This document shows, piece after piece, positions 19,578-22,789 of a stretch of 64,000 bases of DNA. A program made the translations under genes and the position numbers. How positions within the stretch are numbered: the stretch's first letter is position 1; every line of letters starts with the position of its first letter. The notes beneath the pieces were generated by a model. That model was not told the DNA's origin. It searched no databases and worked only from the letters and a program-made list of their open reading frames with translations. The stretch lies in assembly GCF_056746865.1 (NCBI RefSeq), contig NZ_CM163382.1. One strand, written 5' to 3'.

Positions 19578-20351
19578 TCAGAATTTCCAGGTCAGATGGG
19601 CTGCAAGTTGCAGACCGTTATAATCATCGGTTGGGGTGTCGTACCACACTTTACCTGCCGTCAGCCCGAGATTAAGTTGCTCAGTCAGCGGTTGAATACG
19701 TTGCAAACTGACGCTCTTCATGCTGCCGTAGCGTGTTTCTGGCGTCCAGTCATAGGTGTAAGCACCTGTTCCGCGGCTTAGCCATAGTTGCGTATAACCA
19801 GTGCCGCGCGGGTCATTCAGACGCACGGAAATCATATTGCTGTAACTACCACCTGCATCGCTGGAGTCATAATGGGTATAGCGGTAGCTGGAGATCACCG
19901 GGCCAGTATAGAGTGATACGCCGCCTTGCCAGGCATCGACTTCGACATCATCGTAATATTTAGTGTAGCGATAACCGGTCGTGAAAAGCGTTTTTGGCAA
20001 CAGTGCCAGGTTAATATCCTGACGAAAATCCTGGCGGGCAAAGACCGGCGTATTATCCGCAAAGGCAATACCCATTCGGGTTGTCAGCCAGTTATTCCAT
20101 TTATACCAGACCGCACCCTGACCGCGAGTGGCATTGAAATGTTCAGTTTCATAATCACGACGCCCCTGGGAAAGATTAAAAAGCAGCGTTGCGTTTTCAA
20201 CTTTCGCCACCAGTTCAGCATACGCTAAATTACGGTTGCCATGATCGCCAGAATAATCGGTAAAATCGTAGCCCGCGGTAATGGAAGTTAACCCGGCATA
20301 AGCGGGCAATGTGCTAAAAATTGCTGCCGCTAATAACGTCCGTTTTATCAT
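19578..20351 (-). CDS. yaiO: outer membrane beta-barrel protein YaiO
   Basis: 257 aa; signal peptide MIKRTLLAAAIFSTLPAYA; aromatic-rich, ends TWKF. Confidence 0.85.
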   Translation of the reverse strand: MIKRTLLAAAIFSTLPAYAGLTSITAGYDFTDYSGDHGNRNLAYAELVAKVENATLLFNLSQGRRDYETEHFNATRGQGAVWYKWNNWLTTRMGIAFADNTPVFARQDFRQDINLALLPKTLFTTGYRYTKYYDDVEVDAWQGGVSLYTGPVISSYRYTHYDSSDAGGSYSNMISVRLNDPRGTGYTQLWLSRGTGAYTYDWTPETRYGSMKSVSLQRIQPLTEQLNLGLTAGKVWYDTPTDDYNGLQLAAHLTWKF

Positions 20352-20352
20352 T

Positions 20353-21045
20353 TTAATCTCCTGTACGGATAAGTTCTTGTCGGAGTGAATAAGTTCCGGG
20401 AGGTAAATTACGTTCTACAATCACGCGCGGGCCAAGTTGCGTGTTCGGGGAAATAATTCGCCCAGGCAAAATAATAACTTGTACGCCAAGGCGTGAACGC
20501 TGCCCGATATAACAACCTAATTTATCGCATCCGGTAGCGATAATTCCCTCTGGAGTTCGAACAGACACGGGCTGTTGATCCAGACGATGATTACTGGTAC
20601 GTACTTGTGCGCCCAAATATGCCTGGTTTGCAACTACCGAGTCGGCGATAAAGCATTGCGGACCAATCGTTGCTTCCGCTTCAATAACCGCATTTTTAAT
20701 TTCGGTGGCGAAACCAATTTTTACGCCATTGCTGATTATTGTGCCAGGACGAATAAACGCATAATTACCTATCAGGCAGTTTGCGCCAATCACTACCGGA
20801 CCCTGAATAACGGCACCGTGACAAATACGGGTATTCGCGCCGATAACAACTTCACCTGCAGTTTCATCAATAATTACCTGGTCTGCAATCTGAATATTTT
20901 TCTCTTTAACATTAAGCTTCAGAAAGTTTTTCAGTTCCTGTGACAGAAGGTTGGGAATAAGAGGTTGACGCTTCCACCAGTGCGGAATAGCGGGTGGGTT
21001 TGTCGCGCTGAGGTTCGCGTCCAGTAAAAAAGGCAATAAGTCCAT
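20353..21045 (-). CDS. yaiX: hexapeptide-repeat acyltransferase YaiX (intact here)
   Basis: left-handed beta-helix hexapeptide repeats (GANTRICHGAVIQGPVVIGANCLIG...); start uncertain (ATG 21063, ATG 21045 or TTG 21036); no IS interruption. Confidence 0.7.
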   Translation of the reverse strand: MDLLPFLLDANLSATNPPAIPHWWKRQPLIPNLLSQELKNFLKLNVKEKNIQIADQVIIDETAGEVVIGANTRICHGAVIQGPVVIGANCLIGNYAFIRPGTIISNGVKIGFATEIKNAVIEAEATIGPQCFIADSVVANQAYLGAQVRTSNHRLDQQPVSVRTPEGIIATGCDKLGCYIGQRSRLGVQVIILPGRIISPNTQLGPRVIVERNLPPGTYSLRQELIRTGD

Positions 21046-22108
21046 AAATAATCCAGATGGCATAAGCTAATAATACATACACAACGGAAAGCGGTGCTAA
21101 AGGCACCAACAACCAGCAACGATGAAACCAGGCGCTAAAAGCACCAATAACACAAACTACGCCGACCCAGATAAGCGGAAACATTGCCAACACCACACCA
21201 TACGGCCCGGTGGTGATGAATTCATTAAACCAGGTAGTGAGATAAATCCCAACGCCATAAAGCACAACCAACAGCATAGGAAATATACTGAAGATACCGA
21301 AGCGGCTAAATAAAAGCCTTTTATGCAGGCGCATACAGACCGCGTAGCCCACAATCCAACGCCGCCAGCGACGCCATTCCTCACGCGGGCTGTTGCATTC
21401 CTGTGGGTATACGATGCAGCGATTCGCCTGCCGAATACGATAGCCGTTTGCCACCAATGTCCAGGTGAGATCAAGGTCTTCGACTTTAGTACGATCAGAG
21501 AAACCGAACTTACGCAATACATCAGTACGGAACATCCCGCAGGCACCGCTGATAATAAACGGTGCGCCGCCCAGGAGCTGCTGTAGCGTGCGCTTCATAA
21601 CAATCATCGGCAACTTTACGGTCGCGCGGATGTGCGGTAACAGACCCGCGCCTTTCAACGCAGTAGAGGGAATGCCGCCTACGGCATCAGCACCGCGCTC
21701 TATTTCTGCAAGCATATAGCCCATTCCGTCTTGATCGGGCGGAACATAGGTGTCGGCATCACTTAAAAAAACCTGGTCGCAGGTGGCGTAATTGAGGCCA
21801 TTCATCAGCGCACCACCTTTACCGGTATTTTTTTGCGTGACGGCAACAAAGCGGTCGCCCCATTTGCGTTTGACTTCCGCCATGACCGCTTCGGTATTGT
21901 CCGTGGAGCCGTCGTTTACGCAAATTACCCGGCAAAAATAAGGATTACGCAGCAGATTATCCAGTGACTGTGCCAGACACGGGCCTTCGTTATAAGCAGG
22001 TATAATGGCGTCAATACAGCCTTTCTTTTGACTGGGTTTACGTTTTAGCGTACTTAAAAACCATAGCAACATTGCTATGGACATACAGATAAATATCCAG
22101 GTTTTCAT
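20912..22108 (-). CDS. yaiP: family-2 glycosyltransferase with membrane domain YaiP
   Basis: 398 aa; N-terminal TM, GT-A fold motifs (VNDGSTD, DAD), C-terminal TM segments. Confidence 0.8.
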   Translation of the reverse strand: MKTWIFICMSIAMLLWFLSTLKRKPSQKKGCIDAIIPAYNEGPCLAQSLDNLLRNPYFCRVICVNDGSTDNTEAVMAEVKRKWGDRFVAVTQKNTGKGGALMNGLNYATCDQVFLSDADTYVPPDQDGMGYMLAEIERGADAVGGIPSTALKGAGLLPHIRATVKLPMIVMKRTLQQLLGGAPFIISGACGMFRTDVLRKFGFSDRTKVEDLDLTWTLVANGYRIRQANRCIVYPQECNSPREEWRRWRRWIVGYAVCMRLHKRLLFSRFGIFSIFPMLLVVLYGVGIYLTTWFNEFITTGPYGVVLAMFPLIWVGVVCVIGAFSAWFHRCWLLVPLAPLSVVYVLLAYAIWIIYGLIAFFTGREPQRDKPTRYSALVEASTSYSQPSVTGTEKLSEA

Positions 22109-22117
22109 GCAATTTGC

Positions 22118-22789
22118 TCAAAGAATCATTTTATGAATTACAAAGCCTTCACCCAGATCGCTATTGACCTGTTGCCCGCGAAATTGTGCAACTGCACGCA
22201 GGCGATCATGACGCATATAATCGCGTCGTTCCTGGCTTTTATGTTTTTTTAATGCAGCAAGTTTGACTGTGAAATATTCTTCTTTAACGGATTCAAAAAC
22301 CTGAGGCATAAATGAAAGCCAGGTGCTTGGGGTTTCGTAGCCGAGAATTTGTGGAATAGTTCGGCAGGCAACCATTGAAGCTTGATAAACAGCAAGATGA
22401 TCCTGATGGCGGTCGGCATCATGCATGGTATATACCCGCATGATTTCAACATCAGAAGGAATTTGATTTTTAATGATGTCTTCCAGGGCGGAAATCATAT
22501 CATTGAGCTGCAAATGCGCGCGGGTGTCAGCAAAATTAAGATGAATAGTTTGGTGGCACCCTAATATCTTTAGGGCGTTGCGCGATTCTTCATGGCGATC
22601 GATTATTCCATCTGTGCCAGAGTTGCCGGTAGTCATCACCACGGCTGCGATATAAATTCCTTTTTGCGCAAGACGAGCAAGCGACGCGCCACAGCCCAAT
22701 TCTATATCGTCAGGATGTGCGTCAATAGCAAGGATACCCTTTCTTTTATTTGCCGAAGAAAGGATGGCTGAATCTAAAACCTTATCCAC
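22118..22789 (-). CDS. yaiS: LmbE/PIG-L family deacetylase YaiS
   Basis: AHPDDIELG motif typical of the PIG-L/LmbE N-deacetylase family; 223-aa ORF (start may be internal). Confidence 0.75.
   Translation of the reverse strand: MDKVLDSAILSSANKRKGILAIDAHPDDIELGCGASLARLAQKGIYIAAVVMTTGNSGTDGIIDRHEESRNALKILGCHQTIHLNFADTRAHLQLNDMISALEDIIKNQIPSDVEIMRVYTMHDADRHQDHLAVYQASMVACRTIPQILGYETPSTWLSFMPQVFESVKEEYFTVKLAALKKHKSQERRDYMRHDRLRAVAQFRGQQVNSDLGEGFVIHKMIL

What the first reader, a model, noticed from the sequence alone, without database searches (positions are those of the whole stretch)
20912..21045. Long out-of-frame overlap between the yaiP 3' end and the yaiX 5' end
The yaiP stop is at 20912..20914, but the only plausible yaiX start codons (ATG 21063, ATG 21045, TTG 21036) lie more than 120 nt upstream of it. 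The yaiX frame has no ATG, GTG or TTG between 21036 and the yaiP stop. So either the genes overlap by about 125-150 nt in different frames, or one boundary is wrong (for example the true yaiP C-terminus is shorter through a sequence difference).
Basis: seen in the sequence. Interest (0 to 1): 0.3.

Follow-up and report, generated by a model that had tools for sequence, protein, structure and literature searches.

The report
Real 134-base yaiP/yaiX gene overlap
Two neighbouring E. coli genes for making a cell-surface sugar polymer (yaiP and yaiX) most likely do share 134 bases read in two different frames, an unusually long overlap that grew from a 14-base one when yaiX lost its old start codon and yaiP lost its old stop codon.

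Summary
yaiP ends at TAA 20914-20912. In the yaiX frame the only ATG/GTG/TTG codons upstream are 21063, 21045 and 21036.

The overlap is very probably real. Relatives outside the enterobacteria start at (M/V)WW and overlap the glycosyltransferase by only 14 nt. Candidate-phyla relatives start at WW with no overlap at all. E. coli keeps WW (20979-20974) but has His where the start codon was, and Ala where the yaiP stop was. yaiX therefore gained 21 codons at its 5' end and yaiP gained 19 at its 3' end (14+63+57 = 134 nt).

Three results support ATG 21045 as the start:
- All 15 enterobacterial loci keep this ATG with an open frame to WW.
- The only stretch of yaiP with frozen synonymous sites is codons 355-363, exactly at this ATG.
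- This is the least structured spot of the mRNA.

Between WW and RefSeq's CTG starts (20946, 20934), substitutions follow the yaiX frame. Those annotated starts are therefore too far downstream.

The K-12 record already carries the same 134-nt overlap, for an IS2-disrupted pseudogene. No direct translation data exist. This is a well-supported example of a known kind of feature, of moderate interest.

The parts
20912..22108 (-). yaiP CDS, 398 aa: a membrane GT2 glycosyltransferase resembling PgaC/IcaA
   Evidence: ORF. Pfam PF00535 at 5e-28. NCBIfam PgaC_IcaA scores 100.9 bits, below its 422.3 cutoff. RefSeq annotates it as yaiP.
20353..21045 (-). yaiX CDS as best supported here, 230 aa: a left-handed beta-helix (hexapeptide) acetyltransferase starting at ATG 21045
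   Evidence: Pfam Hexapep at 5.3e-18. The K-12 annotation uses the same start. The ATG is conserved in 15/15 enteric loci. A synonymous-constraint block and a structure minimum both sit at this ATG.
20912..21045 (-). The 134-nt dual-coding overlap, with yaiX in the +1 frame relative to yaiP
21020..21046 (-). Block of frozen yaiP synonymous sites: yaiP codons 355-363 (YGLIAFFTG), which are yaiX codons 1-9 (MDLLPFLLD)
   Evidence: across nine enteric sequences 87% of yaiP third positions vary. The only 9-codon windows with <=2 variable third positions start at codons 352-357, with the minimum at codon 355. One search shows the codon alignment. No conserved RNA structure, promoter or Rfam match accounts for it.
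20983..21045 (-). 5' extension of yaiX: 21 codons (MDLLPFLLDANLSATNPPAIP) overprinted on the ancient, conserved yaiP segment YGLIAFFTGREPQRDKPTRYS
   Evidence: In this segment substitutions follow the yaiP phase ([7,4,16] at yaiP codon positions 1, 2, 3).
20980..20982 (-). Position of the ancestral yaiX start codon, now CAC (His)
   Evidence: Non-enteric relatives have ATG or GTG here, directly before WW. In enterics the residue varies (H, Y, P, R).
20974..20979 (-). WW motif (TGG TGG), the conserved N-terminal hallmark of the YaiX family
   Evidence: W23 and W24 are >=90% conserved among 62 homologues, most of which begin MWW or VWW. The motif is also present in candidate-phyla genomes where no gene overlaps it (L014, L016).
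20969..20971 (-). Position of the ancestral yaiP stop codon, now GCG (Ala)
   Evidence: 7 of 7 non-enteric proteobacterial loci end ...RDKPxRYxxVVx* at this position, giving a 14-nt overlap.
20912..20971 (-). 3' extension of yaiP: 19 codons (ASTSYSQPSVTGTEKLSEA) plus TAA, overprinted on ancestral yaiX coding sequence
   Evidence: The tail is poorly conserved as protein (30% mean pairwise identity, against 55% for the yaiX frame). Substitutions are most frequent at yaiX third positions.
20932..20934 (-). CTG used by RefSeq/PGAP as the yaiX start (193 aa); probably an internal Leu codon
   Evidence: The aligned codon is CTG, GTG, TTG or ATG in other enterics. The yaiX frame is under selection upstream of it.
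20944..20946 (-). CTG used by RefSeq/PGAP as the yaiX start in other strains (197 aa)
20986..20988 (-). ATT (Ile26 of the 236-aa ORF), at the position where some enterics keep a proximal ATG; a possible weak near-cognate start
   Evidence: It lies in a GC-rich, structured stretch (dG -15.1, 25th percentile).
21061..21063 (-). Upstream ATG that gives the 236-aa version used by KEGG
   Evidence: PMC13058169 uses the '236-aa variant'. The codon is not conserved in Citrobacter and other genera, and no Shine-Dalgarno (SD) pairing was found.
22118..22789 (-). yaiS, a PIG-L family deacetylase and first gene of the operon; intact here
19578..20351 (-). yaiO, an outer-membrane beta-barrel and last gene of the operon; it starts one base after the yaiX stop

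Best explanation
yaiP and yaiX form a true co-directional overlapping gene pair. yaiX translation most likely starts at ATG 21045, inside the codons for the last membrane helix of YaiP, and runs in the +1 frame for 134 nt before yaiP stops at 20912.

The arrangement is derived. The ancestral junction, still seen in Pseudomonas, Acinetobacter and alphaproteobacteria, was a 14-nt overlap of the form nATGTGGTGGnnnTAA, with YaiX starting MWW. In the enterobacterial lineage an ATG created by the Tyr/His-Gly codon pair of yaiP (TAT GGA) became the start. The old start decayed and is His in E. coli. The yaiP stop was lost, so YaiP reads on for 19 more codons.

Each gene's new end is written over the other gene's older, constrained sequence. 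YaiP dictates the sequence in the 5' half of the overlap. YaiX dictates it in the 3' half.

Initiation probably depends on an A/U-rich, unstructured start region with at most a weak SD (CUGGAU). It is probably helped by ribosomes translating yaiP that keep the mRNA open.

Shown here: the reading frames, the family-wide WW N-terminus, the 14-nt ancestral junction, the conserved ATG, the frozen synonymous sites and the substitution phase.

Inferred, not shown: that ribosomes actually initiate at 21045, and the order of the evolutionary steps.
For: 1. Family N-terminus. Most of 62 homologues begin MWW or VWW, and both W are >=90% conserved. Candidate-phyla loci L014 and L016 start at WW with no overlapping gene, so WW belongs to YaiX itself.

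2. Ancestral state. 7 of 7 non-enteric proteobacterial loci show a 14-nt overlap with the GT2 gene ending ...RDKPxRYxxVVx*.

3. Conserved start. All 15 enterobacterial loci keep the upstream ATG and an open frame to WW. Salmonella loci look like intermediates, with a short YaiP tail and overlaps of 83-95 nt.

4. Frozen synonymous sites. 87% of yaiP third positions vary, but codons 355-363 are nearly invariant. This is the global minimum among the 9-codon windows tested. Fisher tests give p = 2.8e-5 for the 20 codons of segment A. For the first nine codons one search gave 2.7e-8 with 0/9 entered; the true count is 1/9 variable, so that figure is slightly overstated.

5. Selection on the yaiX frame. 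In the 13 codons between WW and CTG 20934, substitutions at yaiX positions 1, 2, 3 number 16, 14, 30. A yaiP-only model is rejected at p = 3.5e-8. Amino-acid identity is 55% in the yaiX frame against 30% in the yaiP frame.

6. mRNA structure. The 61-nt windows around 21055-21037 are the least structured in the yaiP-yaiX mRNA (dG -2.5 to -3.9, against a mean of -12.8).

7. Function. The K-12 curators already annotate the same start. Repairing the K-12 yaiX pseudogene is reported to restore a clumping phenotype that also needs yaiP, which suggests the native junction can be expressed; this is an abstract-level report and the construct is not described (PMC3531124).
Against: - There is no direct evidence of initiation. 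I found no ribosome-profiling or N-terminomics data for yaiX.
- The SD at ATG 21045 is weak (-3.1 kcal/mol).
- Some enterics (Enterobacter PGRG2, Superficieibacter, one Salmonella) also keep an ATG 2-4 codons before WW. The upstream ATG need not be the one used in those species.
- Conservation of MDLLPFLLD is partly forced by the conserved YaiP helix.
- The comparative set is small (9-15 sequences) and the sequences are related, so the p-values are only indicative.
- A second unstructured island lies at 20938-20884, around the RefSeq CTG start and the yaiP stop.
- The AlphaFold model gives no information on the N-terminus (pLDDT <50 there).
Confidence: 0.68

Rival explanations
1. The RefSeq/PGAP model is right. 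YaiX starts at a CTG (20934 or 20946), is 193-197 aa long, lacks WW and overlaps yaiP by only 23-35 nt. It might be translated by ribosomes re-initiating near the yaiP stop. The long open frame upstream would be an untranslated relic.
For: RefSeq annotations use these starts. In some relatives the aligned codon is GTG, TTG or ATG. An unstructured, A/U-rich island lies at 20938-20884 with AGGA just upstream of CTG 20934.
Against: RefSeq picks different CTGs in different strains, and a GTG giving 174 aa in others. The AGGA is at spacing 0. From general knowledge, CTG initiates poorly in E. coli. The codon varies as an ordinary Leu/Val/Met position. The 13 codons upstream evolve in the yaiX phase with 55% against 30% identity. 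WW is a family hallmark that this model would discard.
Confidence: 0.08
2. YaiX starts at a near-cognate codon just before WW, most plausibly ATT 20988, a degraded remnant of the proximal ATG kept in some enterics. That gives a 77-nt overlap and very low expression.
For: Enterobacter PGRG2, Superficieibacter and Salmonella have ATG at or near this position (VMLPWW, AMPPRWW, AMPWW). Most other enterics have Ile (ATT or ATA) there.
Against: There is no SD, and the region is GC-rich and structured (dG -15.1, 25th percentile). This model does not explain the frozen synonymous sites at 21046-21020. From general knowledge, ATT initiates at a very low level in E. coli.
Confidence: 0.12
3. YaiX starts at ATG 21063 (236 aa, 152-nt overlap), as in KEGG-style annotations.
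For: It is the first ATG after the in-frame stop. It is used in PMC13058169. It is present in E. coli and E. whittamii, and the local mRNA is weakly structured.
Against: It is absent in Citrobacter (Thr) and in more distant enterics, some of which have a stop codon between it and the conserved ATG. No SD pairing was found. yaiP synonymous sites vary freely between 21063 and 21046.
Confidence: 0.05
4. No independent yaiX start exists. A programmed +1 ribosomal frameshift inside the overlap makes a YaiP-YaiX fusion; or yaiX is an untranslated, decaying gene in E. coli.
For: The yaiX frame is +1 relative to yaiP, and no strong ribosome-binding site is present. yaiX is often hit by insertion sequences.
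Against: None of 526 homologues is a GT2-LbH fusion. The overlap contains no in-frame yaiP stop before 20914, so a prfB-like CUU-UGA site cannot be present; I ran no dedicated slippery-motif scan. The gene stands alone with its own start in other phyla. The yaiX-only region shows strong purifying selection ([38,21,126]). The repaired gene gives a phenotype (PMC3531124).
Confidence: 0.04

Closest known systems
[quoted passage not shown]
   Same: It is a same-strand, out-of-frame overlap of two conserved genes in one operon. It is conserved at the nucleotide level across enterobacterial genera, and its length is genus-specific.
   Different: holD/rimI overlaps by 32-56 nt. yaiP/yaiX overlaps by 134 nt in E. 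coli (at least 71 nt if WW is translated at all), and here the 14-nt ancestral state and the intermediates can be seen.
Category v of long-overlap misannotations ('5' and 3'-end extension') in Palleja et al. 2008
   Same: Compared with distant orthologues, the downstream gene is longer at its 5' end and the upstream gene is longer at its 3' end. That is exactly their flag for an erroneous overlap.
   Different: Both extensions are conserved throughout an enterobacterial clade, and no shorter canonical start exists. The old start and stop codons are demonstrably gone, and selection is detectable at the new start. It would therefore be a false positive of that rule.
Model for the origin of unidirectional overlaps by loss and replacement of start or stop codons (Fonseca, Harris and Posada 2013, PMC3887535)
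   Same: The mechanism is the same: loss of a stop codon elongates the upstream gene, and loss of a start codon recruits an upstream one.
   Different: This is a concrete case in which both events occurred at one junction, and outgroups allow the polarity to be inferred.
Short operon overlaps (4 nt ATGA, 14 nt and similar) used for translational coupling
   Same: The ancestral yaiP/yaiX junction is of this type (14 nt).
   Different: In E. coli the yaiX start lies 131 nt upstream of the yaiP stop codon, so termination-reinitiation coupling cannot deliver ribosomes to it.
pgaABCD / icaADBC poly-N-acetylglucosamine systems (functional context of the operon)
   Same: The operon has a PgaC/IcaA-like membrane GT2 synthase, a deacetylase and an outer-membrane beta-barrel. 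Repaired yaiX plus yaiP give cell clumping.
   Different: No gene reaches the NCBIfam equivalog cutoff. The deacetylase is of the PIG-L type. The operon also carries a GlmU-C-terminal-like LbH acetyltransferase, which the pga operon lacks (the last point from general knowledge).

Membership tests
True co-directional overlapping (dual-coding) gene pair | Two ORFs on the same strand in different frames share nucleotides | tested here: met
   The yaiP stop is at 20912-20914. The yaiX frame is open from 21066, and the two frames are offset by +1.
True co-directional overlapping (dual-coding) gene pair | Both ORFs encode bona fide conserved proteins | tested here: met
   GT2 PF00535 at 5e-28 and Hexapep PF00132 at 5.3e-18. 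Outside the overlap each gene shows third-position-dominated substitution.
True co-directional overlapping (dual-coding) gene pair | The overlap is conserved in orthologues | tested here: met
   15/15 enterobacterial loci show it, with overlaps of 77-134+ nt depending on species and start choice. Outgroups have 14 nt.
True co-directional overlapping (dual-coding) gene pair | There is selection on the second frame inside the shared region | tested here: met
   yaiP synonymous sites are frozen at yaiX codons 1-9. Substitution follows the yaiX phase in the yaiP tail. The sample is small and the sequences are related.
True co-directional overlapping (dual-coding) gene pair | Both frames are actually translated across the shared region | not testable with these tools
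   No ribosome-profiling or N-terminomics data for yaiX were found. yaiP must be translated to its stop. The yaiX start is inferred.
Misannotated long overlap (Palleja et al. 2008 rule) | Gene length differs significantly from its orthologues | tested here: inconclusive
   The criterion is met against distant orthologues (206 aa against 230 aa; about 380-385 aa against 398 aa). It is not met within enterobacteria, where the lengths are conserved.
Misannotated long overlap (Palleja et al. 2008 rule) | A shorter, orthologue-consistent start codon is available | tested here: not met
   No ATG, GTG or TTG lies between 21036 and 20880. The codon at the ancestral start position is CAC.
Programmed +1 frameshift (prfB type) | A slippery CUU-stop site with an upstream SD, and fused orthologues | tested here: not met
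   The overlap contains no in-frame yaiP stop before 20914. None of 526 homologues is a GT2-LbH fusion. I ran no dedicated slippery-motif scan.
Hexapeptide-repeat (LbH) acyltransferase, GlmU C-terminal-like (YaiX) | Hexapeptide repeats score above the Pfam gathering score | tested here: met
   PF00132 scores 64.3 bits against a cutoff of 27. The best solved relatives are the ST0452-type LbH domain (5z09, 2ggo) at E = 6e-33.
Hexapeptide-repeat (LbH) acyltransferase, GlmU C-terminal-like (YaiX) | Membership of a named NCBIfam equivalog (archaeal or bacterial GlmU) | tested here: not met
   Arch_glmU scores 129.6 bits against a cutoff of 292.1, and only the C-terminal domain matches.
PgaC/IcaA poly-beta-1,6-GlcNAc synthase (YaiP) | NCBIfam TIGR03937 score above the cutoff | tested here: not met
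   100.9 bits against a cutoff of 422.3. It is a generic GT2 member only.

The most novel reading that the evidence does not exclude
The full 134 nt is truly dual-coding and the new YaiX N-terminus (MDLLPFLLD...) is itself a selected, functional peptide, for example one that docks the acetyltransferase to the YaiP synthase or to the membrane. That would make this a validated co-directional overlap more than twice as long as the 56-nt holD/rimI record of the Palleja survey. It would also be a clean, stepwise example of two genes each writing a new end over the other.
Probability: 0.35. Interest if true: 0.5.

Novelty: new member of a known kind. Interest (0 to 1): 0.35.

Why it matters
Long same-strand overlaps are usually dismissed as annotation errors. 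A genome-wide survey found no real one above 60 bp (PMC2478687). This junction looks like a true exception, and its evolutionary path is visible: a 14-nt overlap, then intermediates of 83-95 nt in Salmonella, then 134 nt.

There is also a practical consequence. Public records give YaiX at least five different N-termini (236, 230, 197, 193 and 174 aa). The RefSeq starts appear to cut off the family's conserved WW N-terminus.

Anyone cloning or deleting yaiX or yaiP needs to know that the last 44 codons of yaiP and the first 44 of yaiX are the same DNA. This applies to work on the clumping phenotype and on the reported drug-resistance phenotype. Beyond that it is an ordinary operon, and nothing suggests a new mechanism.

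Tried and rejected
- **RNA structure at the frozen block.** RNAalifold gave -1.22 kcal/mol with essentially no covariation, so I rejected it.
- **Promoter, terminator or known RNA family in the overlap.** There were no promoter-like sites, one terminator-like match at chance level and no Rfam hit.
- **Structure prediction of the 230-aa YaiX.** I wanted to see whether WW and the extension pack on the beta-helix. Mean pLDDT was 61 and the N-terminal 26 residues were below 50, so the model was uninformative and I ran no fold search.
- **Experimental start-site data.** I looked at tetracycline ribosome profiling (PMC4909307), Ribo-RET (bioRxiv 520783, no supplements held) and TRAINSPOTTER N-terminomics (PMC13245402). 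None had an entry for yaiX or yaiP.
- **YaiP-YaiX fusion by frameshifting.** I found no fused homologues and no stop-linked slippery site.
- **Sequencing error or strain-specific frameshift.** I rejected this because the junction is nearly identical in about 4800 genomes.
- **ATG 21063 as the start.** I rejected this as the conserved start because it is absent outside Escherichia.

Full report
**What is there.** The window carries the E. coli region frmA-frmR-yaiO-yaiX-yaiP-yaiS-tauA, with the yai genes on the minus strand.
- yaiP (22108..20912) is a 398-aa membrane GT2 glycosyltransferase.
- The next ORF is a hexapeptide-repeat (left-handed beta-helix, LbH) acetyltransferase.
- yaiS is a PIG-L deacetylase and yaiO an outer-membrane beta-barrel.
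- The four genes are tightly packed: 9 nt lie between yaiS and yaiP, and 1 nt between yaiX and yaiO.
- EcoGene reported that repairing the IS2-disrupted K-12 yaiX restores a clumping phenotype that also needs yaiP (PMC3531124).

**Checking the observation.** yaiP stops at TAA 20914-20912. The yaiX frame is +1 relative to yaiP and is open from a TAG at 21069-21067. Its only ATG/GTG/TTG codons down to 20880 are ATG 21063, ATG 21045 and TTG 21036.

RefSeq/PGAP annotates yaiX from CTG 20934 (193 aa) or CTG 20946 (197 aa). In other strains it uses a GTG that gives 174 aa. Other pipelines give 230 aa and KEGG gives 236 aa. The curated K-12 record places the start of the yaiX pseudogene at the ATG equivalent to 21045, which gives the same 134-nt overlap.

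**Where the protein family begins.** Among 526 homologues, those outside the enterobacteria are about 206 aa long and begin MWW or VWW. This aligns with His-Trp-Trp of the E. coli ORF, and both Trp are >=90% conserved in a 62-sequence alignment. In two candidate-phyla genomes the gene starts at (M/V)WW with no gene overlapping it, so WW is intrinsic to YaiX and not a by-product of yaiP. In E. coli WW is at 20979-20974, which is 60-67 nt upstream of the yaiP stop and upstream of both RefSeq CTG starts.

**How the junction evolved.** In 7 of 7 non-enteric proteobacterial loci the GT2 gene ends ...RDKPxRYxxVVx*. These are Pseudomonas viridiflava, Acinetobacter, Sphingomonas and several metagenome-assembled genomes. 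The acetyltransferase there starts at the ATG or GTG of (M/V)WW, giving a 14-nt overlap.

In E. coli and its relatives two things have changed:
- The old start position is His, Tyr, Pro or Arg.
- The old stop position is a sense codon, so YaiP carries 19-24 extra residues.

The relatives examined are E. whittamii, Citrobacter, Enterobacter, Superficieibacter, and a second, diverged operon type found in some E. coli.

All 15 enterobacterial loci have an ATG formed by the Tyr/His-Gly codon pair of yaiP (TAT GGA), and the +1 frame is open from there to WW. Salmonella loci look like intermediates: they have the upstream ATG but only 3-7 extra YaiP residues, with annotated overlaps of 83-95 nt. In window coordinates, 134 nt = 14 ancestral + 63 (21 new yaiX codons, 21045-20983) + 57 (19 new yaiP codons, 20971-20915).

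**Which frame is constrained where.** I counted substitutions by codon position in ungapped blocks across seven enteric sequences.

| Segment | Frame counted | Substitutions at positions 1, 2, 3 |
|---|---|---|
| yaiP only | yaiP | 48, 20, 101 |
| yaiX only | yaiX | 38, 21, 126 |
| 5' half of the overlap | yaiP | 7, 4, 16 |

- **5' half of the overlap.** The pattern follows the yaiP phase, but only 9 of 20 third positions vary, against 57 of 62 upstream (Fisher p = 2.8e-5).
- **Scan of the whole yaiP gene in nine enterics.** 87% of third positions vary. The only 9-codon windows with <=2 variable third positions start at codons 352-357, and the minimum is at codon 355, the TAT that contains ATG 21045.
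- **What is frozen.** The block is TAT GGA CTT ATT GCC TTT TTT ACT GGA, which reads MDLLPFLLD in the yaiX frame. yaiP synonymous sites vary freely just before and after it.
- **Other explanations for the block.** No conserved RNA structure, promoter or Rfam family accounts for it.
- **3' half of the overlap.** In the 13 codons between WW and CTG 20934, substitutions at yaiX positions 1, 2, 3 number 16, 14, 30 in twelve enterics. A yaiP-only model is rejected (p = 3.5e-8). Mean pairwise identity is 55% in the yaiX frame and 30% in the yaiP frame.

yaiX is therefore being selected, and so translated, upstream of the RefSeq starts. The YaiP tail looks like a passenger. These p-values ignore the relatedness of the sequences and are only indicative.

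**Initiation context.**
- ATG 21045 has only a weak Shine-Dalgarno (SD) match (CUGGAU, -3.1 kcal/mol, spacing 5). ATG 21063 and ATT 20988 have none. CTG 20934 has AGGA at spacing 0.
- The 61-nt windows centred on 21055-21037 are the least structured in the whole yaiP-yaiX mRNA (dG -2.5 to -3.9, against a mean of -12.8 and sd 4.4).
- A second open island lies at 20938-20884, and ATT 20988 sits in a structured GC-rich stretch.
- This fits SD-poor initiation at an open, A/U-rich site. It does not exclude a minor shorter isoform.

**Verdict.**
- yaiX translation very probably begins upstream of WW, about 0.85 in my judgement. That alone gives an overlap of at least 71 nt.
- The best single start is ATG 21045 (about 0.68), which gives 134 nt.
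- The rivals are a near-cognate start at ATT 20988, the RefSeq CTG starts, ATG 21063, and a frameshift fusion or dead gene.

**Comparison with what is known.** Origin of overlaps by loss of a stop or start codon is a known model (PMC3887535), and the K-12 annotation already contains this overlap. However, a survey of 338 genomes found no real co-directional overlap above 60 bp. The longest real one it accepted was holD/rimI, at 32-56 bp (PMC2478687). yaiP/yaiX would be flagged by that survey's rule as a '5' and 3' extension' error, yet it appears real. It is a new, well-supported member of a known kind. It is of moderate interest and has practical value for annotation and for anyone engineering these genes.

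**What is missing.** There is no direct evidence of the YaiX N-terminus. I found no relevant entries in the start-site profiling or N-terminomics supplements I could search. The AlphaFold model was too poor to judge the N-terminal region.

Noticed in passing
window 22118-22789 (yaiS); difference at 22234: yaiS is intact here (223-aa ORF, ending 9 nt before yaiP). K-12 carries a CAG-to-TAG nonsense change at the position equivalent to 22234, which truncates YaiS to 185 aa. Several RefSeq genomes flag the gene as partial or a pseudogene.
   Followed up: partly
roughly window 22130-22255, + strand (equivalent of K-12 ykiC, b4731): The small protein gene ykiC (39 aa) is annotated antisense to the 3' end of yaiS. 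Where yaiS is intact, ykiC lies entirely inside yaiS on the opposite strand; for example, L025 has a 39-aa PF23686 YkiC call at 680-799 inside the PIG-L gene at 149-814. This is an antisense overlap that may deserve its own look.
   Followed up: no
window 20353-21063, and protein clusters: Public records give YaiX at least five different N-termini: 236 aa (KEGG), 230 aa (K-12/EcoGene and ENA gene calls, 1737 members), 197 and 193 aa (RefSeq CTG starts, 1845 members) and 174 aa (GTG start, 1174 members).
   Followed up: yes
L023 3641-3726 (Enterobacter sp. PGRG2): In this lineage YaiX has lost its usual stop and is 241 aa long, with a C-terminal extension. It overlaps the next gene, yaiO, by 86 nt. 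This is a second long overlap in the same operon, made by the same kind of event.
   Followed up: no
window 20353-21045; K-12 locus L019 2761-4091; hits H1, H6, H7, H9: yaiX is repeatedly hit by insertion sequences: IS2 in K-12 and its derivatives, and IS1 in other strains, including the strain otherwise 100% identical to this window. It may be an insertion hot spot, or a gene often selected against.
   Followed up: no
L026 (E. coli), L009 ('Candidatus Ignatzschineria' MAG contig), P0050 and P0051: Some E. coli carry a second, diverged copy (about 62% identity) of the whole deacetylase-GT2-LbH-YaiO operon, partly on plasmids. A 6-kb chicken-gut MAG contig assigned to Ignatzschineria has a closely similar junction sequence, so it may be mis-binned or horizontally transferred.
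   Followed up: no
window 20912-20914 and aligned positions in L004-L008, L023-L025: The position of the extended yaiP stop is conserved in 10 of 12 enteric sequences although the codon itself differs (TAA, TGA, TAG). It relies on a T at a yaiX third position, where the 13 yaiX third positions examined just upstream (between WW and CTG 20934) all vary. This suggests some selection on the length of the YaiP tail.
   Followed up: partly
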